A DNA stretch of 40,878 nt from a virus (IMGVR_UViG_2541047787_000006:1-40878); one strand, 5' to 3'. Numbered from the stretch's first letter, positions 5,707-35,681 are shown. Notes: generated from the letters alone by a model not told the origin. Made by a program: numbers and translations.

Positions 5707-5727
5707 TTATTGCATGGAGAAGATAAG

Positions 5728-5985
5728 ATGCAGCAGTATCACTATCCACTGGAAGACGGATTTACCGAAAGGATTCACACGCCGGGAGGCGTCAGGTCAC
5801 TGGTGGAGGGATCGCACTTGATGAAATTACTCCGGGATCTCGATAAGGATGGATTTAATGTCGATGGCCCACTTGCCGAACTGACTGCACTGATTAACTA
5901 CGTCACCAGCTCACAGATGTCTATGCAGGATCTGCAAACACATCTCGACTATTGTGCCGAACAATTACGAAAACAAACCCGGTAA
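5728..5985 (+). CDS. Small protein homologous to the C-terminal domain of the antirepressor at 7373-8029; candidate SOS-induced antirepressor
   Basis: GGAGA RBS 7 nt upstream; product IHTPGGVRSLVEGSHLMKLL..DLQTH aligns with [25 protein letters not shown] of the 7373 protein; the ORF track start at 5710 is TTG without an RBS. Confidence 0.5.
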   Translation: MQQYHYPLEDGFTERIHTPGGVRSLVEGSHLMKLLRDLDKDGFNVDGPLAELTALINYVTSSQMSMQDLQTHLDYCAEQLRKQTR

Positions 5986-6009: not shown

Positions 6010-6516
6010 TTAACAGTCGTAAAATTCCGGGTCCCACAAACTTGCATCGCGCGGCATGGATTCTAAATTTTTCAGCCGCAAAATTCTGTCACACTCGACA
6101 AGAAGTTTTTGTTTTTGTTCGTCAATTTCTACTTTTTTGTGTGCTGGCTCATCCCAGTAATCCAGAAGAAACGCATGTCGCTCAGACGTTACAAGATAAA
6201 TCACATACACATCACTGGTTGGTATTTTTTTATGCTTGTTGGTGGCCTTGTCTTTCTTCCCGGATGCCCAGTTTTTCCAGCATTGTTCCGTACCGCTCTC
6301 ACCAAACTTGTCAGTATAGTTTCCGATGTTTACGTGAACGTGGCGTATGTGATATTCCAGCATCTCTTTCGGTGGATCCCGAAACAGAGTGTCCTTTCCG
6401 AAATCCTTATGATGACCGTAGCGCCAGTGATCTATGAACGCGTTTTTGATAGGTATTAGCTCAGGGTCCTTCCCAAAAATTCCAGGGTGAACCAACCCCT
6501 GGAATTTATTCAGCAT
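6010..6516 (-). CDS. YafO-like toxin-domain protein (putative mRNA interferase-type toxin), module 1
   Basis: Motifs FGKD..F.DP, RHVHVN, IPTSD, VIYLVT and EPAHK resemble the YafO family as recalled from memory; paralogous to 8331-8876; start ATG at 6516 overlaps the upstream stop (ATGCTGAATAA). Confidence 0.45.
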   Translation of the reverse strand: MLNKFQGLVHPGIFGKDPELIPIKNAFIDHWRYGHHKDFGKDTLFRDPPKEMLEYHIRHVHVNIGNYTDKFGESGTEQCWKNWASGKKDKATNKHKKIPTSDVYVIYLVTSERHAFLLDYWDEPAHKKVEIDEQKQKLLVECDRILRLKNLESMPRDASLWDPEFYDC

Positions 6517-6925
6517 CGTCGTAGAGCTCCTGAGCCATATCTTCGGCAGTGCGTGCAAACATCCTGCGCGAGATTGCATGAGATTTCTCGACGGACATCT
6601 TTGGGACCTCATGCATAACATTTTTGGGAGTTGTGTAATAGCCTATTACAATTTTCACACCTGACTTATGATTAATATCAGCATAATATACTTCTTGTTC
6701 AGACGTTTCACGACGAACATAATCTGCCAGTTTTCCACATTTAAATTCCCCTCCCTGATGTTTTAAAATCTCCTCAACTGCACTATTTTCAGTGAAATAC
6801 CGAATAAGAAATTTCTGTCCAGTCTCTTCAGCATGAGGTATAACAGTATTATTGGAAGCCCGAACAATGGCCTTACTCAATATTTCATGGTCTTTATTTT
6901 TTTCTGATTTCCTCAAATGCTGCAT
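6506..6925 (-). CDS. Upstream partner of toxin-like gene (candidate antitoxin or immunity protein), no recognisable family
   Basis: 139 aa from the ATG at 6925; overlaps the downstream start by 11 nt; C-terminal tail KMSVEKSHAISRRMFARTAEDMAQELYDDAE resembles the tail of the 8177 small ORF. Confidence 0.4.
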   Translation of the reverse strand: MQHLRKSEKNKDHEILSKAIVRASNNTVIPHAEETGQKFLIRYFTENSAVEEILKHQGGEFKCGKLADYVRRETSEQEVYYADINHKSGVKIVIGYYTTPKNVMHEVPKMSVEKSHAISRRMFARTAEDMAQELYDDAE

Positions 6926-6961: not shown

Positions 6962-6976
6962 CTACCTCTAGGGTAA
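6962..6976. promoter_or_regulatory. Operator-like palindrome CTACCTCTAGGGTAA upstream of module 1
   Basis: TTACC-N5-GGTAA family member about 40 bp upstream of the 6925 start on the minus strand; TTGCCA and TAGAAT hexamers immediately upstream on that strand. Confidence 0.45.
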
Positions 6977-7057
6977 ACATTCTATCGAAAGTATACGCAT
7001 ACTGGCAAAAAAATAGGCAGGTATTTTCTGAAATGGGATCAATCAAACCACATAGGG

Positions 7058-7101
7058 TTGAAATAACGTGAGTTATGCATTTATTATTACCTTTGCGGTA
7101 A
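7058..7101 (+). promoter_or_regulatory. Sigma70-like promoter (TTGAAA-N17-TTATTA) with overlapping operator TTACCTTTGCGGTAA at 7087-7101
   Basis: Hexamers read directly; perfect TTACC-N5-GGTAA dyad at the predicted transcription start. Confidence 0.5.
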
Positions 7102-7192
7102 ATTTACATCGCACTCCTCTTGTGCCATAGTAATCGGGCACTGGCAAAATCCAGTGCCGGGATTGGTCTCCCGGATTACTAAGTGGCGCATA

Positions 7193-7214
7193 CCACGCCA
7201 GACGTGGTTTTTTT
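7193..7214 (+). terminator. Rho-independent terminator inside the antirepressor leader
   Basis: Stem CCACG / CGTGG, loop CCAGA, followed by seven T; about 120 nt downstream of the 7058 promoter and 160 nt upstream of the 7373 start. Confidence 0.55.
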
Positions 7215-7372
7215 ATGCGTATAGCACAGTCATGCCAGAATTATGGTGGGCTGAATGGGGGTCCGAAAGGACGCCGGTACCACTTAGGCCGGTAAGACCA
7301 ACTCCGTTCAGTTCACCACCATCTGATTGGTCTCAGCGGTGGTGATGTAATTCGCTAAGTGGAGACGCCATC

Positions 7373-8029
7373 ATGAACGCTCAACTCATCCCCGTATTCA
7401 ACGGCACTATATCTAACGAAACAGCCCTACTTTGTAATGCCCGCGATCTGCACGCTTTTTTAGGTGTTAAAAAGGTGTTTGCAGCATGGATTACAAATCG
7501 CATATCAGAATACGAATTCATTGAAAATCAAGACTATATTTTGCTTTCCAATTTGGGAAAGCAAACATCTGGTAGAGGCGGCCACAACCGCAAAGAGTAC
7601 CACCTTACCCTTGATACAGCCAAAGAGCTGGCGATGGTCGAGCGTAACGAAAAAGGTCGCCAGGTGCGACGCTACTTCATTGAATGCGAGAAACGTTTAA
7701 GACAACAAGAAACAAAAGTGGAGAAGGTCTTGTCAGGCTTCATGCCCGCCATTATGGAGGCGATCAAGCTGGAAGACAAAAAAGAATACAGTGCCCCGCT
7801 GAAGCCCGGCTACCGCAGCCTGATTCATTCTCCGTCTGGTGTTCTCGGCCTGACGGAAAACTCACTGCTGATGAATCTGCTGAACCAGTTACAGGAAGAC
7901 GGGCACGACGTATCGGGCGCGGCGGCGGAGCTGACCACCATGTTCTGCTACATCGTCGGTGTGAGCAAATGCCTGCGTGATATCCAGACCCACGCGGAGT
8001 ACATCAACGACAAGGCTGGGTTCTTCTGA
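7373..8029 (+). CDS. Antirepressor, AntA/AntB-type N-terminal domain plus C-terminal domain shared with the 5728 protein
   Basis: N-terminal [34 protein letters not shown] matches the AntA antirepressor pattern; GGAG RBS at 7361. Confidence 0.7.
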
Positions 8030-8073
8030 CGGGCGGCGGCACAGGGATGTGCCTTTAAATAATTCTGTACAGA

Positions 8074-8116
8074 TTGCAGACTGTGGGTGAATAGCGTACT
8101 ATTACCTCAAGGGTAA
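8074..8116 (+). promoter_or_regulatory. Sigma70-like promoter (TTGCAG-N17-TACTAT) with overlapping operator TTACCTCAAGGGTAA at 8102-8116
   Basis: Same promoter-operator architecture as at 7058 and 35639. Confidence 0.45.
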
Positions 8117-8176
8117 ACGGATTGGTTTCATTTTTATTAATCCGTGTAATGAACTTATGAGATATGAGGTAATGTC

Positions 8177-8356
8177 ATGCGAAACGAAAAATTGCAGATG
8201 CGTAGAGCGCAAGCTGCCGCAAGACGTTCTTTCAATGGAAGCGTAGAGTACGTAAAAGTTACTATGACAAAAGATCACGCAAGTCGCGTATCCAGCGCTT
8301 TCTTTGATTCTCGTAACAATAAGGAAAATTATGAGTTCGTCTGCGTCGCAGAATGA
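8177..8356 (+). CDS. Small 59-aa protein overlapping the start of toxin-like gene (candidate antitoxin), module 2
   Basis: Not in the ORF track (under 60 aa); GAGG RBS at 8166-8169, ATG at 8177; overlaps the 8331 gene by 26 nt; tail KVTMTKDHASRVSSAFF...VAE resembles the C-terminus of the 6506-6925 product. Confidence 0.35.
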   Translation: MRNEKLQMRRAQAAARRSFNGSVEYVKVTMTKDHASRVSSAFFDSRNNKENYEFVCVAE

Positions 8357-8876
8357 TAAAAATCAAATTGTCAGATATAAGGGTCGAGTATTGCATACGC
8401 AAAATTTCTCGGCCCTTTGTGCATCTGATCTTGAGCTGAAGAAAGTATCTGATGCCTTTGCCCAGTATTGGAAAACGGGATACCATCCATCTCTTGGTAA
8501 AGATGCTGCATTTGCTCGTCCGACAGAAATGCTTAAACTAAATGTCAGGCATACTCATGTCGATAACCAAGACTATATTCCAGAAGATAGTGATAAAAAA
8601 CACACTGGTAAAAAATCATCTTGGGATGCATGGAAAAATATAGCGTCTGTACAAGTAAAATGCATACCAACAAGTGATTGCTTTTTAGTTTATTCGGTAA
8701 ATCACAATCGTGATGCGCTGGTTATGTTTTTTGTTGACGCAGATGCTCACAACATAACTGAGCAAGAAGAGTTTAAAGAGGCAGCAATCACTATCAGTTA
8801 TCAATTCTTTGAGAAAACAAAAACAGAACCAATGCCTTTAGAAGAAGATCTTTTTTCTGATAAATGGAAGGAATAG
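8331..8876 (+). CDS. YafO-like toxin-domain protein, module 2 (paralog of 6010-6516)
   Basis: AAGGA RBS 5 nt upstream of the ATG at 8331; shares W.TGYH, LGKD..F.RP.EML, RHTHVD, IPTSD, LVYSV and DAHN motifs with the 6010 product. Confidence 0.45.
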   Translation: MSSSASQNDKNQIVRYKGRVLHTQNFSALCASDLELKKVSDAFAQYWKTGYHPSLGKDAAFARPTEMLKLNVRHTHVDNQDYIPEDSDKKHTGKKSSWDAWKNIASVQVKCIPTSDCFLVYSVNHNRDALVMFFVDADAHNITEQEEFKEAAITISYQFFEKTKTEPMPLEEDLFSDKWKE

Positions 8877-8968
8877 CCCGCGGCGCGGGCTTTTTTGTGG
8901 ACGAAACAAAAGTCAGTGCTACACTCATTAACGCCACATTGAGGTGGCTTATAGATGGAAATTTCACA

Positions 8969-9130
8969 ATGAAAAAAGCATTTGCTGCACTGTTCGTTTT
9001 GTTGTCTCTGGTAGCTTCAACTCAGGCCTTTGCCGGTCGTTGTCAGCACGACAGCGATACTGCCGCTGACGGCTCCCGCTGCGGTGGGCGTTCTGCGGAT
9101 TCCCGCCCGGGCGGCGGTGGCATTCGTTAA
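8969..9130 (+). CDS. Small secreted Cys-containing peptide (53 aa), function unknown
   Basis: Internal ATG at 8969 gives signal peptide MKKAFAALFVLLSLVASTQAFA followed by a Gly/Arg/Cys-rich tail; terminator-like hairpin directly downstream. Confidence 0.35.
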   Translation: MKKAFAALFVLLSLVASTQAFAGRCQHDSDTAADGSRCGGRSADSRPGGGGIR

Positions 9131-9166: not shown

Positions 9167-9727
9167 CTACATTGATATATGATTCATAAAGTAGCTTAAA
9201 GATTTACTTCCCAGAAAAGAAATTTCTTTTCCTGGATATGTCGCAATAATTGAGCATGACTTATCCCCGTTAGAGGTAACAAATCCTGAATAACCTACTT
9301 GTTCTTTACCATTTTGTTGCTTGGCTAAAAAGTAGAGGTAGCTTATCTTTTTGCCCTCTGGGTAAAACTCTGCCAAACCAGTATCGGTGATTGAATATTT
9401 TATTCTCCCGCCTTGAGTAACGTTTTCCATCTCAAGTTTAGCTATGTCTTTTCTGTTGTATTCAGCATTGATTTTCCTTTCGAAATCAATATTGTTTTCA
9501 AATGAGTAGGAAGCAACAGTCTGAATAGATGGGAACACGTTTATCTGGATGCCTCCACAGTCGGCACAGGTATAAAGGTATGAATCAGATGGAATCCCCA
9601 TAAAAGAAAACTGAGTTACCTTAAATTTATCGCTATCTCCAAAGTATTGAAGTTCGCATTTAACATTTTGCCCTGCAAAAGAAAATGCAGACATCAATAT
9701 TGAAACAAAAAATATAATTGCCTTCAT
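9167..9727 (-). CDS. Secreted or periplasmic protein of unknown function (moron)
   Basis: Signal peptide MKAIIFFVSILMSAFSFA; 4 Cys; markedly AT-rich gene between core-protein gene and cargo island. Confidence 0.55.
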   Translation of the reverse strand: MKAIIFFVSILMSAFSFAGQNVKCELQYFGDSDKFKVTQFSFMGIPSDSYLYTCADCGGIQINVFPSIQTVASYSFENNIDFERKINAEYNRKDIAKLEMENVTQGGRIKYSITDTGLAEFYPEGKKISYLYFLAKQQNGKEQVGYSGFVTSNGDKSCSIIATYPGKEISFLGSKSLSYFMNHISM

Positions 9728-26242: not shown

Positions 26243-26319
26243 GTGGCATTAGCTCAGTTGGACAGAGCAACCGCCTTCTAAGCGGTTGGTCGCAGGTTCG
26301 AATCCTGCATGCCACGCCA
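26243..26319 (+). tRNA. tRNA-Arg, anticodon UCU
   Basis: Cloverleaf read by hand: acceptor GTGGCAT/ATGCCAC, D-arm GCTC..GAGC, anticodon stem ACCGC/GCGGT with loop CTTCTAA, T-arm GCAGG-TTCGAAT-CCTGC, discriminator G and CCA. Confidence 0.85.
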
Positions 26320-34844: not shown

Positions 34845-34907
34845 TCACCTATAAGGTAACAAAAATCAAGGATAGTTACCTATGGGGTGCATTTACCTGT
34901 TGGGTAA
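34845..34907. promoter_or_regulatory. Immunity-region operator cluster: TCACCTATAAGGTAA (34845-34859), TTACCTATGGGGTGC (34876-34890), TTACCTGTTGGGTAA (34893-34907)
   Basis: Three copies of the TTACC-N5-GGTAA dyad within the 154-bp gap between the cro-like and repressor-like genes. Confidence 0.6.
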
Positions 34908-34962: not shown

Positions 34963-35547
34963 ATGAAAAGTATCCAGGACGTCCGCAGGCAAAATCTCAA
35001 CGACTTGATCGACCGTGAATTCAATGGTGTTCAGACGCGGATGGCAGAAAAACTTGGAACTCAGGCAAATCTGGTAAACCGCTGGGCTCTTGGCAAGAAG
35101 GTTATCGGCGACCAGGTTGCGCGAAAAATTGAAGCTGCCGCAAATAAACCCCGTAACTGGCTTGATATCGATCGCTCGCTTTCTCAGGAGGGTTTTCAGC
35201 CTGTCGGCCCAAGCGACATTGGTCAGCTGGCGGCTCACAACCTGGAACGCTGGATGAGCGAAAGCCGCGACCTTTCAACTCAGGGAAAACTTCACCGCGC
35301 ATCCGGCGTCGCCCAGGTGACAATCAGCCGCCTGTTAAACAATGAGGTCAGCGTTTCCATTTCCACCCTGGAGAATGTTGCATCCGCATTCGGGCGTCAC
35401 GGCTATGAATTACTGATTCACCCGCACGACCCTGCGACTATCAACTATGATCGCTCGCGCTACGCATTGTTACCCGAAACCGAGAAAGCAAAGATCGAAA
35501 GTTACATTGAATTTGTCATCAACCAGAACGAAAAAAACAAACAATAA
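34963..35547 (+). CDS. Prophage repressor candidate with two HTH motifs and no peptidase domain
   Basis: Two HTH-like segments (QANLVNRWALGKK and GVAQVTISRLLNNE); no recognisable S24-type cleavage module; divergent from cro. Confidence 0.55.
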   Translation: MKSIQDVRRQNLNDLIDREFNGVQTRMAEKLGTQANLVNRWALGKKVIGDQVARKIEAAANKPRNWLDIDRSLSQEGFQPVGPSDIGQLAAHNLERWMSESRDLSTQGKLHRASGVAQVTISRLLNNEVSVSISTLENVASAFGRHGYELLIHPHDPATINYDRSRYALLPETEKAKIESYIEFVINQNEKNKQ

Positions 35548-35638: not shown

Positions 35639-35681
35639 TTGACATCAAACCAGATACGCATAATTATTACCTCAACGGTAA
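35639..35681 (+). promoter_or_regulatory. Early rightward promoter (TTGACA-N16-TAATTA) with overlapping operator TTACCTCAACGGTAA at 35667-35681
   Basis: Consensus -35 hexamer, AT-rich -10, operator at the predicted transcription start. Confidence 0.55.

What the first reader, a model, noticed from the sequence alone, without database searches (positions are those of the whole stretch)
8074..8876. Cargo module 2: paralogous YafO-like gene with a different 59-aa overlapping partner, on the opposite strand
The 8331-8876 product is a clear paralog of the 6010-6516 product (shared W.TGYH, GKD, RH.HV, IPTSD, LVY and AH motifs; roughly 30 percent identity by eye). Its upstream partner here is only 59 aa (8177-8356, absent from the ORF track) and overlaps the toxin-like start by 26 nt. 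The tail of that small ORF resembles the C-terminal tail of the module 1 partner, suggesting a shared toxin-binding segment attached to different N-terminal parts. Two diverged copies flanking the antirepressor, each behind a promoter plus operator, look like a duplicated and diversifying system.
Basis: partly seen in the sequence, partly recalled or inferred. Interest (0 to 1): 0.8.

Follow-up and report, generated by a model that had tools for sequence, protein, structure and literature searches.

The report
Prophage YafO-like toxin with mini-antitoxin
This is a two-gene toxin-antitoxin cassette carried as cargo by an epsilon15-like E. coli prophage: a distant YafO-family RNase-type toxin preceded by a real but mostly unannotated 59-residue partner. 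The toxin is already named in RefSeq, so the find is largely ordinary.

Summary
ORFs 8177-8356 (59 aa) and 8331-8876 (181 aa) overlap by 26 nt. The 181-aa protein is a paralog of the 6010-6516 product (31% identity, E 3e-23).

The large protein is a diverged YafO-family toxin:
- It matches Pfam PF13957 just above the cut-off.
- Its family profile retrieves bona fide YafO proteins.
- RefSeq already names it "YafO family toxin".

The 59-aa ORF is a real gene:
- It is intact in 45 of 45 loci with a close toxin.
- Its dN/dS is about 0.2 in its own frame only.
- It belongs to PHROG 6685.
- It has no DNA-binding domain, is unrelated to YafN, and is predicted to be largely disordered.

The claimed tail resemblance to the module-1 partner is weak (profile P about 0.003, permutation p about 0.01, BLASTP and HMM not significant).

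The two modules are not a local duplication. Each toxin is closer to toxins in other phages than to the other.

The "operator" (TTACC-N5-GGTAA) is not specific to the cassette. It occurs 10 times in the window, including around the repressor gene. I infer that the phage repressor controls the cassette.

Verdict: a new variant of a known kind, of modest interest.

The parts
8038..8064 (+). Probable terminator of the ant transcript: hairpin GGCACA-GGGA-TGTGCC followed by TTTAAATAATT
   Evidence: Read from the sequence. The hairpin keeps pairing through sequence changes in related loci (GCGCAGGGACGCGC, GGCGCAGGGATGCGCC). The terminator scanner did not flag it, because the T-run is too short.
8074..8102 (+). 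Promoter-like site: -35 TTGCAG (8074-8079), 17-nt spacer, -10 TACTAT (8097-8102)
   Evidence: Read from the sequence. It is weak by consensus (7/12) and was not listed by the scanner. A TTGnnn-17-TAATAT/CAAAAT unit sits at the same position, fused to the palindrome, in diverged loci L034, L037, L041, L042 and L043. Stretch 8040-8121 is shared at 96% with phage phiv142-3, which carries different cargo downstream.
8102..8116 (.). Operator-like palindrome TTACC-TCAAG-GGTAA, abutting the -10 and covering the expected transcription start
   Evidence: TACC-N5-GGTAA occurs at 10 sites in the window against 0.1 expected. Eight or nine of the sites are fused to an A/T-rich hexamer ending in AT. The motif is conserved upstream of the small ORF in loci from other genera and absent in the siphovirus contexts.
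8177..8356 (+). 59-aa partner, the candidate antitoxin. It has a basic N-terminal helix (residues 2-17), a conserved VKVTMTK-H segment and a conserved C-terminal NYEFVCVAE
   Evidence: Full-length match to phrog_6685, E 1.4e-44. Ten homologs of 59 aa at 73-98% identity, found in Hafnia and Lelliottia among others. Intact in 45 of 45 loci whose toxin is at least 56% identical, always overlapping the toxin start by 23-26 nt. dN/dS is 0.18-0.35 in its own frame and about 1 or above in the other two frames. No Pfam, NCBIfam or PADLOC family. No similarity to YafN. The AF2 monomer has pLDDT 55, with only two helices.
8331..8876 (+). 181-aa YafO-family (RelE/HigB-fold) toxin candidate
8875..8897 (+). 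Intrinsic terminator closing the two-gene operon
   Evidence: Hairpin AGCCCGCGGCGCGGGCT (7 pairs, 6 of them G-C) followed by TTTTTTGTGG.
6010..6516 (-). Module-1 paralogous toxin (168 aa)
   Evidence: 31% identity to the module-2 toxin, E 3e-23. phrog_1651. No Pfam hit of its own. PGAP names its ortholog in E. coli EC24 a YafO family toxin.
6506..6925 (-). Module-1 partner (139 aa from ATG 6925), with a conserved C-terminal tail
   Evidence: phrog_9503 aligns from Met13 of the longest ORF. The tail REVPKMSVEKSHAISRRMFARTAEDMAQELYDDAE is nearly identical on at least four unrelated N-terminal bodies.
6962..7008 (-). Module-1 promoter (TTGCCA-18-TAGAAT, 7008-6979) and palindrome CTACC-TCTAG-GGTAA (6962-6976)
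   Evidence: Promoter scan, 10/12 matches; palindrome.

Best explanation
Region 8074-8897 is a self-contained two-gene type II toxin-antitoxin-like operon carried as low-GC cargo in the antirepressor (immI-like) region of a Uetakevirus (epsilon15/phiV10/TL-2011b-like) prophage of E. coli. The downstream gene encodes a 181-aa member of a phage-borne branch of the YafO family. It has a RelE/HigB (BECR) fold and keeps the conserved His, Ser and Tyr positions. By analogy with E. coli YafO and the other RelE-type toxins, it is expected to cleave mRNA and arrest translation (inferred). The upstream overlapping gene encodes a 59-aa, largely disordered protein with no DNA-binding domain. I take it to neutralise the toxin by direct binding through its conserved middle and C-terminal segment, with the 26-nt overlap giving coupled translation (inferred). 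Because the partner has no recognisable DNA-binding module, the operon is probably not autoregulated in the classical way. It is instead read from a backbone promoter whose start is covered by the palindrome TTACC-N5-GGTAA. The same palindrome sits at the phage's other early-type promoters, including those flanking the HTH repressor gene. The prophage repressor (or its Cro-like partner) therefore probably sets the cassette's expression (inferred). Shown here: the genes, their overlap, paralogy, YafO homology, the predicted fold, coding selection on the small ORF, co-inheritance of the pair across three genomic contexts, and the multi-site palindrome. Inferred: toxicity, neutralisation, RNase activity, repressor binding and biological role. 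The most likely role is abortive-infection-type defence or competition between phages.
For: Toxin identity:
- Pfam PF13957 at 25.9 bits against a cut-off of 25.
- A profile of 18 family members finds 87 representatives among 1.84 billion proteins. The lower part of that list includes 131-135-aa proteins that are strong Pfam YafO_toxin members.
- The motif positions GxD, RHxH, TSD..LVY and AH align with E. coli YafO.
- RefSeq gives it the same name.

Partner is real and linked to the toxin:
- PHROG 6685, full length.
- Intact in 45 of 45 loci.
- dN/dS is low only in its own frame.
- The pair is kept after a Bro-N antirepressor (L004/L005), next to a primase (L007) and between tail genes (L006).
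- More distant toxin subfamilies always have some overlapping upstream partner.

Operon structure: Shine-Dalgarno sites, the overlap and the terminator.

Regulation:
- 10 palindromes against 0.1 expected, fused to -10-like hexamers.
- Sites lie at 34893, 35605 and 35667 around an HTH_3 protein encoded at 34963-35547.
- The motif is absent where the cassette sits in siphoviruses.
- No Pfam domain was found in any partner type.

Background: YafO belongs to the RelE/ParE BECR superfamily, with antitoxin-then-toxin gene order (PMC11980606). The Uetakevirus repressor and antirepressor have been tested functionally in phage ZX5 (PMC9782041).
Against: - The Pfam score is only 0.9 bits above threshold. 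The module-1 paralog has no Pfam hit.
- hhalign against the single E. coli YafO sequence gives a probability of only 11.5%.
- Foldseek against PDB has no significant hit (best E 0.22, though the top hits are again HigB2 and HigB).
- No PADLOC model matches.
- The toxin carries about 50 residues absent from the canonical 132-aa YafO: an N-terminal extension, an insert at 78-112 and a conserved C-terminal tail MPLEEDLFSDKW. Their roles are unknown.
- The partner has no detectable relationship to any known antitoxin, and its monomer model is uninformative.
- No interaction, toxicity or cleavage was or could be tested.
- The module-2 promoter is weak by consensus (7/12) and was not called by the scanner.
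- Which protein binds the palindrome is unknown.
- If the repressor really shuts the promoter off in lysogens, a classical lysogen-protecting role becomes harder to explain.
Confidence: 0.7

Rival explanations
1. The pair is a lytic-phase host-takeover device rather than a toxin-antitoxin system in the usual sense. The promoter is shut by the prophage repressor in lysogens. The RNase-like protein is made only after infection or induction, to degrade host mRNA. The small protein acts as a timing or dosage modulator.
For: The palindrome over the transcription start is the same as at promoters flanking the repressor gene and at other early-type promoters. The cassette sits beside the antirepressor operon, which carries the same site at 7087. 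The partner lacks a DNA-binding domain, so there is no sign of autonomous regulation.
Against: The cassette is dispensable and patchily distributed. It is found in 61 of 5426 complete E. coli genomes and in only 2 phages (3 records; TL-2011b is deposited twice) of 50,697 records. Related phages such as phiv142-3 carry unrelated small genes at the same place. It has low GC and moves between unrelated phage types and positions as a pair. Both are typical of accessory defence or addiction cargo rather than of a core lytic function. Repressor binding has not been shown.
Confidence: 0.15
2. The large protein is a catalytically inactive or repurposed RelE-fold protein, for example a ribosome- or RNA-binding factor. 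The small ORF is an unrelated co-transcribed phage peptide. There is then no toxin-antidote relationship.
For: Membership in YafO is borderline by Pfam score. Large clade-specific extensions are present. No known antitoxin family matches the partner. No YafO-family structure has been solved against which to check the active site.
Against: The positions conserved between this clade and canonical YafO are exactly the polar His, Ser and Tyr positions expected of an active site. The strict co-inheritance, the conserved translational overlap and the presence of some overlapping upstream partner in every subfamily are what a toxin-antidote pair predicts.
Confidence: 0.1
3. The 59-aa ORF is not a functional gene. 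On this reading it is a chance ORF or only a translational leader, and the toxin homolog is an orphan.
For: PGAP does not annotate it in RefSeq E. coli genomes. Its monomer model has low confidence.
Against: It is kept intact, at 58-60 aa, in 45 of 45 loci down to 48% protein identity. dN/dS is 0.18-0.35 in its own frame against about 1 or above in the others. It matches PHROG 6685 over its full length. It has a good Shine-Dalgarno sequence.
Confidence: 0.03

Closest known systems
E. coli YafN-YafO (dinB-yafNOP operon), Pfam PF13957 YafO_toxin
   Same: Homologous toxin: Pfam hit above the cut-off, reciprocal profile retrieval, and shared GxD / RHxH / TSD..LVY / AH motifs. The gene order is antitoxin then toxin, with overlapping or abutting genes. 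The expected activity is mRNA cleavage that blocks translation (PMC2814082, PMC11980606).
   Different: Only remote sequence similarity: BLASTP not significant and hhalign probability 11.5%. The toxin is 181 aa rather than 132, with an N-terminal extension, an internal insert and a conserved acidic/aromatic C-terminal tail. The partner is unrelated to YafN, has 59 aa and no DNA-binding domain. The cassette is prophage cargo behind a phage-type operator rather than part of an SOS operon.
Vibrio cholerae HigB2-HigA2 and other HigB/RelE-type ribosome-dependent mRNases
   Different: Sequence identity is 8-9%. Gene order is toxin then antitoxin in the HigB families (PMC11980606). From general knowledge, HigA2 carries an HTH DNA-binding domain; the 59-aa partner here does not.
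PaaA2-ParE2 (with the separate regulator PaaR2) of E. coli O157:H7 prophage
   Different: ParE2 belongs to a different branch of the toxin superfamily (from general knowledge). There is no sequence similarity between PaaA2 and the 59-aa protein in any search run here. The regulator here appears to be the phage's general repressor rather than a dedicated third gene.
Phage P1/P7 immI region (C1-controlled operator, c4 antisense RNA, ant)
   Same: An antirepressor gene preceded by a C4-family antisense RNA (Rfam RF01695, 61.2 bits, and isrK, 67.7 bits). The region is apparently under an operator that recurs at many scattered sites in the genome. From general knowledge, P1 C1 operators are scattered in the same way.
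   Different: This concerns the neighbourhood, not the cassette itself. The operator sequence and the repressor are unrelated to those of P1. From general knowledge, P1 immI carries no toxin-antitoxin cassettes.

Membership tests
YafO toxin family (Pfam PF13957) | Sequence match to the family model at or above the curated threshold | tested here: met
   25.9 bits against a cut-off of 25, residues 46-148 on model positions 3-88 of 101. This is borderline, and the module-1 paralog does not reach E 0.1.
YafO toxin family (Pfam PF13957) | Reciprocal homology: a profile of this clade finds undisputed YafO proteins | tested here: met
   The A1 profile finds P0095 (E 2.5e-6) and P0110 (E 6.7e-5) among 1.84 billion proteins. 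These score 82.9 and 88.9 bits on PF13957.
YafO toxin family (Pfam PF13957) | Conservation of the family's invariant polar residues | tested here: met
   In alignment A5, which includes E. coli YafO, G56 and H76 are invariant, and P64, H74, S115, Y121 and H140 are conserved in at least 90% of sequences. Which of these are catalytic is not established for any YafO.
YafO toxin family (Pfam PF13957) | Cognate antitoxin of the YafN (Phd/YefM-like) type | tested here: not met
   No local alignment between the 59-aa protein and YafN. No Pfam or NCBIfam family.
YafO toxin family (Pfam PF13957) | mRNA endonuclease activity that inhibits translation | not testable with these tools
   Needs expression and RNA-cleavage assays.
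RelE/ParE (BECR-fold) toxin superfamily | The alpha/beta fold of RelE/HigB | tested here: met
Type II toxin-antitoxin system | Two adjacent co-directional genes in one operon, with a small upstream protein partner and translational coupling | tested here: met
   26-nt overlap, one promoter-like site and one terminator. The overlap is conserved in 45 of 45 loci.
Type II toxin-antitoxin system | The pair is inherited as a unit across different genomic contexts | tested here: met
   The pair occurs after Bro-N ant, next to a primase and between tail genes, and in 73 viral loci. Every subfamily has an overlapping upstream partner.
Type II toxin-antitoxin system | Antitoxin with a DNA-binding domain that autoregulates the operon | tested here: not met
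   No HTH, RHH, AbrB or Phd domain in the 59-aa protein or in any of nine partner types. The monomer model shows two helices with pLDDT 55. The upstream palindrome is shared with 9 other sites in the phage. Some accepted systems, such as PaaA2-ParE2, also lack this feature.
Type II toxin-antitoxin system | Toxin arrests growth; antitoxin binds and neutralises it and is proteolytically labile | not testable with these tools
   Needs genetics and biochemistry.
Known anti-phage defence systems (PADLOC-DB v2) | Match to a model of a described defence protein | tested here: not met
   No hit at E up to 0.1 for either toxin or either partner.

The most novel reading that the evidence does not exclude
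The YafO-like cassettes of Uetakevirus prophages are wired into the phage immunity circuit. Their promoters carry the same operator as the early promoters, so they stay silent under the prophage repressor. They fire only when repression is lifted, whether by induction, by the neighbouring antirepressor, or by an invading phage's anti-repressor. That would make them a derepression-triggered toxin switch. Their antitoxins would form a previously undescribed family built from a short conserved C-terminal neutralising tail and freely exchangeable N-terminal bodies. The 59-aa protein would be the minimal form of that family.
Probability: 0.25. Interest if true: 0.55.

Novelty: new variant of a known kind. 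Interest (0 to 1): 0.33.

Why it matters
If the pair works as inferred, it adds a phage-borne branch to the small and poorly studied YafO family, for which no structure has been solved. It also adds a new DNA-binding-domain-less mini-antitoxin that genome annotation pipelines currently miss. Without that partner, the toxin looks like an orphan in RefSeq.

Two wider points deserve a bench test. First, the cassette promoter shares its operator with the prophage's early promoters, which would tie toxin expression to the lysis-lysogeny switch. Second, the partner proteins of this toxin clade show tail-plus-swappable-body modularity.

None of this overturns current understanding. Prophage toxin-antitoxin cargo, RelE-fold toxins and modular antitoxins are all well known.

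Tried and rejected
1. Direct similarity of the 59-aa protein to YafN gave nothing.
2. NCBIfam and PADLOC scans of all cargo proteins gave no meaningful hits.
3. BLASTP of the two partner proteins gave E 0.58. An HMM of the other partner tails against all 742 window ORFs placed the 59-aa ORF at about rank 37. I therefore do not claim homology of the tails. I report only weak profile-level similarity.
4. Foldseek of the toxin model against PDB and BFVD gave no significant matches. The afdb50 library was unavailable.
5. The AF2 model of the 59-aa protein alone had low confidence and was not used for fold search.
6. A sequence search of PDB with the family profile found no solved relative.
7. A Pfam scan of nine partner types, looking for a DNA-binding domain, found none.
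8. The idea that the palindrome is the antitoxin's own operator was rejected. It occurs at 10 sites across the phage and is absent where the cassette sits in siphoviruses.
9. The idea of a local duplication was rejected from the identity matrix.
10. My first automatic partner-finding script mis-set some toxin starts (L004, L036-L040, L047, WIN1). A tblastn-based check corrected this.

Full report
**What is at the coordinates.** The window is 99.3% identical across this region to Escherichia phage TL-2011b. It also matches prophages in E. coli chromosomes. The genome type is Uetakevirus (epsilon15/phiV10-like), as the taxonomy of the related phiv142-3 record shows.

- ORF 8177-8356 (+) encodes 59 aa and ORF 8331-8876 (+) encodes 181 aa. 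They overlap by 26 nt.
- Each has a Shine-Dalgarno sequence: GAGGT at 8166-8170 and AAGGA at 8321-8325.
- A strong intrinsic terminator follows at 8875-8897.
- Upstream lie a probable terminator of the antirepressor transcript (8038-8064), a promoter-like TTGCAG-17-TACTAT (8074-8102) and the palindrome TTACCTCAAGGGTAA (8102-8116).
- The cassette has 38.6% GC against 49.4% for the window.

**Paralogy.** The 181-aa product and the 6010-6516 product share 31% identity over 154 residues, E 3e-23. Both belong to phrog_1651. The two genes lie on opposite strands on either side of the AntA/Bro-type antirepressor gene 7373-8029.

**What the large protein is.**
- It matches Pfam YafO_toxin (PF13957) at 25.9 bits against a cut-off of 25. 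That is borderline, and the module-1 paralog does not match.
- I built an alignment of 18 relatives and searched 1.84 billion representative proteins with its profile. It found 87 hits at E up to 1e-3. The family is therefore small.
- The lower part of the hit list includes 131-135-aa proteins that score 56-89 bits on PF13957. The link to canonical YafO is thus reciprocal.
- An alignment that includes E. coli YafO (fetched) keeps G56 and H76 invariant. P64, H74, S115, Y121 and H140 are nearly invariant.
- Comparison with the single E. coli YafO sequence is weak: hhalign E 0.0026, probability 11.5%, and BLASTP shows nothing.
- The AF2 model is confident (pLDDT 86, pTM 0.82).
- Foldseek ranks the same proteins first but without significance.
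- No YafO-family structure has been solved.
- The literature places YafO in the RelE/ParE BECR-fold superfamily, with antitoxin-then-toxin gene order and mRNA degradation as its activity (PMC11980606, PMC2814082).
- RefSeq already names this protein, and the module-1 ortholog in strain EC24, "type II toxin-antitoxin system YafO family toxin".
- Compared with the 132-aa canonical YafO, this clade has an N-terminal extension, an insert around residues 78-112 with two conserved Trp, and a conserved C-terminal tail MPL(D/E)EDLFSDKW.

**Is the 59-aa ORF a gene?** Yes.
- It matches PHROG 6685 over its full length (E 1.4e-44).
- Homologs of exactly 59 aa, at 73-98% identity, occur in Hafnia and Lelliottia among others.
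- Among 77 related loci, all 45 whose toxin is at least 56% identical keep an intact 58-60-aa ORF. It overlaps the toxin start by 23-26 nt.
- Over codons 1-51, outside the overlap, dN/dS is 0.18-0.35 in the ORF's own frame and about 1 or above in the other two frames. Substitutions concentrate at third codon positions.
- The pair is kept together in three different settings. These are after a Bro-N antirepressor in a Serratia prophage, next to a primase and SSB region in Pectobacterium, and between tail genes of a siphovirus contig.
- PGAP does not annotate this ORF. The TL-2011b record calls it a hypothetical protein.

**What the 59-aa protein looks like.**
- It has no Pfam, NCBIfam or PADLOC family and no similarity to YafN.
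- AF2 predicts only two helices (2-17 and 32-38), at pLDDT 55.
- That fits a disordered antitoxin which folds on its toxin. It argues against an autonomous DNA-binding domain.

**The tail claim.**
- Direct BLASTP of the two partners gives E 0.58.
- In the wider family, every toxin subfamily has an overlapping upstream partner of 55-183 aa.
- The last 35 aa or so of these partners follow a loose common pattern: a K-hydrophobic-S/T strand-like segment, then (I/V)S(R/K), then an acidic/aromatic C-terminus.
- The tails of four partner groups are related to each other with hhalign P from 5.5e-6 to 0.019.
- The 59-aa family aligns to them in the same register, with P 0.003, 0.003, 0.14 and 0.045.
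- In column-shuffle tests, 3/300, 2/300, 0/300 and 19/300 shuffles reached the observed score.
- An HMM of all the other tails does not pick the 59-aa ORF out of the window's 742 ORFs (rank about 37, E 21).
- I therefore rate the resemblance as suggestive, not established.
- The modular idea itself does hold for the module-1 partner. Its 36-aa tail REVPKMSVEKSHAISRRMFARTAEDMAQELYDDAE is nearly identical on at least four unrelated N-terminal bodies.
- One of those bodies (MHRTKRAGPN...) also occurs with a different tail type in L073.
- None of the bodies has a Pfam domain.

**Not a local duplication.** The module-1 toxin is 42-45% identical to toxins in L055, L071 and L073. The module-2 toxin is 44-45% identical to toxins in L006 and L050. 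The two window copies are only 31% identical to each other. L055 has the same post-ant promoter sequence as the window but carries a cassette of the other subfamily. phiv142-3 shares 8040-8121 at 96% and then carries unrelated small genes. The two positions are therefore cargo slots where old, diverged cassettes are exchanged.

**The operator.**
- TACC-N5-GGTAA occurs at 10 sites in the window against 0.1 expected from shuffles.
- The sites are at 6962 (module 1), 7087 (upstream of the isrK-like and C4 RNAs and ant), 8102 (module 2), 25906, 29107, 32500, 32562, 34893, 35605 and 35667.
- Eight or nine of them are fused to an A/T-rich hexamer ending in AT. Several have a good -35, for example TTGACA-17-AATTAT at 35640.
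- Three sites surround a 194-aa HTH_3 protein encoded at 34963-35547. This is the likely repressor, divergent from a 76-aa Cro-like gene.
- A paper on phage ZX5 showed that the Uetakevirus HTH repressor blocks lytic transcription and that the Bro-type antirepressor counteracts it. It describes no operator (PMC9782041).
- The motif is kept upstream of the small ORF in loci from several genera. It is absent where the cassette sits in siphoviruses, which have other palindromes there.
- I infer that the cassette promoter belongs to the phage repressor's regulon and that the small protein does not autoregulate. Binding has not been shown.

**Mechanism proposed.** The steps are marked as shown or inferred.
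- Transcription starts at about 8109 from a repressor-controlled promoter (inferred).
- The 59-aa protein and the toxin are translated in a coupled manner (gene layout shown, coupling inferred).
- The small protein binds and blocks the RelE-fold toxin (inferred from co-inheritance and analogy).
- If freed, the toxin cleaves mRNA and stops translation (inferred from YafO/RelE homology).

The biological role is open. It could be abortive-infection-type defence or inter-phage competition, or a function tied to derepression.

**Distribution and novelty.** Module 2 is present in 61 of 5426 complete E. coli genomes. Among 50,697 phage records, TL-2011b (deposited twice) carries it and EC.W1-9 carries a 31%-identical homolog. 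No complete genome carries the full two-module stretch at 80% coverage or more. EC24 comes closest, at 76%. A yafO-like gene in a Salmonella prophage has been mentioned in the literature without study (PMC9836087). I found no experimental work on this clade or its partner. I file it as a new variant of a known kind, with modest interest.

Noticed in passing
window 7138-7214 and 7239-7323: An isrK-family sRNA (67.7 bits) and a C4-family antisense RNA (61.2 bits) lie in tandem directly upstream of the antirepressor gene 7373-8029. A promoter-like site (TTGAAA-18-TATTAT, 7058-7087) is fused to the palindrome at 7087-7101. The layout resembles the P1/P7 immI region.
   Followed up: partly
window 6962, 7087, 8102, 25906, 29107, 32500, 32562, 34893, 35605, 35667 (15-bp sites): The palindrome TTACC-N5-GGTAA occurs 10 times against 0.1 expected. 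Most copies are fused to a -10-like hexamer, and three surround the HTH repressor gene 34963-35547. This looks like the operator set of the phage's master repressor. I found no published description of it.
   Followed up: partly
window 5710-5985 (+): A 91-aa ORF (phrog_450) is 44% identical (E 1e-16) to residues 134-210 of the antirepressor encoded at 7373-8029. It is a free-standing copy of the Ant C-terminal domain just across module 1. It could be a decoy or modulator of Ant.
   Followed up: partly
window 6506-6925 (-), and proteins P0124, P0126, P0132, P0143, P0145: The last 36 residues of the module-1 partner are nearly identical on at least four unrelated N-terminal bodies. One of those bodies also occurs with a different tail type (locus L073). 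The antitoxin-like partners of this toxin clade are strikingly modular.
   Followed up: partly
window 8331-8876, residues 168-180 of the product; also the 6010-6516 product: Toxins of this clade end in a conserved acidic/aromatic tail, MPL(D/E)EDLFSDKW, that canonical 132-aa YafO proteins lack. Its character resembles the C-terminal ends of the partner proteins (ELYDDAE, SFDGPE, EFDVFE).
   Followed up: no
window 8970-9130 (+) and 9167-9727 (-): More low-GC cargo lies after the cassette. One is a 53-aa signal-peptide protein (phrog_14503, 'membrane associated protein', moron category). The other is a 186-aa protein with an N-terminal signal-like sequence (phrog_11983, 35% GC).
   Followed up: no
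window 26243-26316 (+): A tRNA gene (Rfam 73.3 bits) lies about 320 nt downstream of one of the palindrome sites (25906).
   Followed up: no
window 8117-8145 (+): A 7-bp inverted repeat (ACGGATT ... AATCCGT, 15-nt loop) sits in the 5' leader of the cassette, at the point where similarity to phiv142-3 ends (about 8121). It is not conserved in diverged loci such as L034.
   Followed up: no
locus L001 3169-4257 (TL-2011b, NC_019445.1 34153-35241): In TL-2011b the position corresponding to module 1 is annotated only as a misc_feature 'similar to hypothetical protein'. This may mean a disrupted copy of module 1 in that phage.
   Followed up: no
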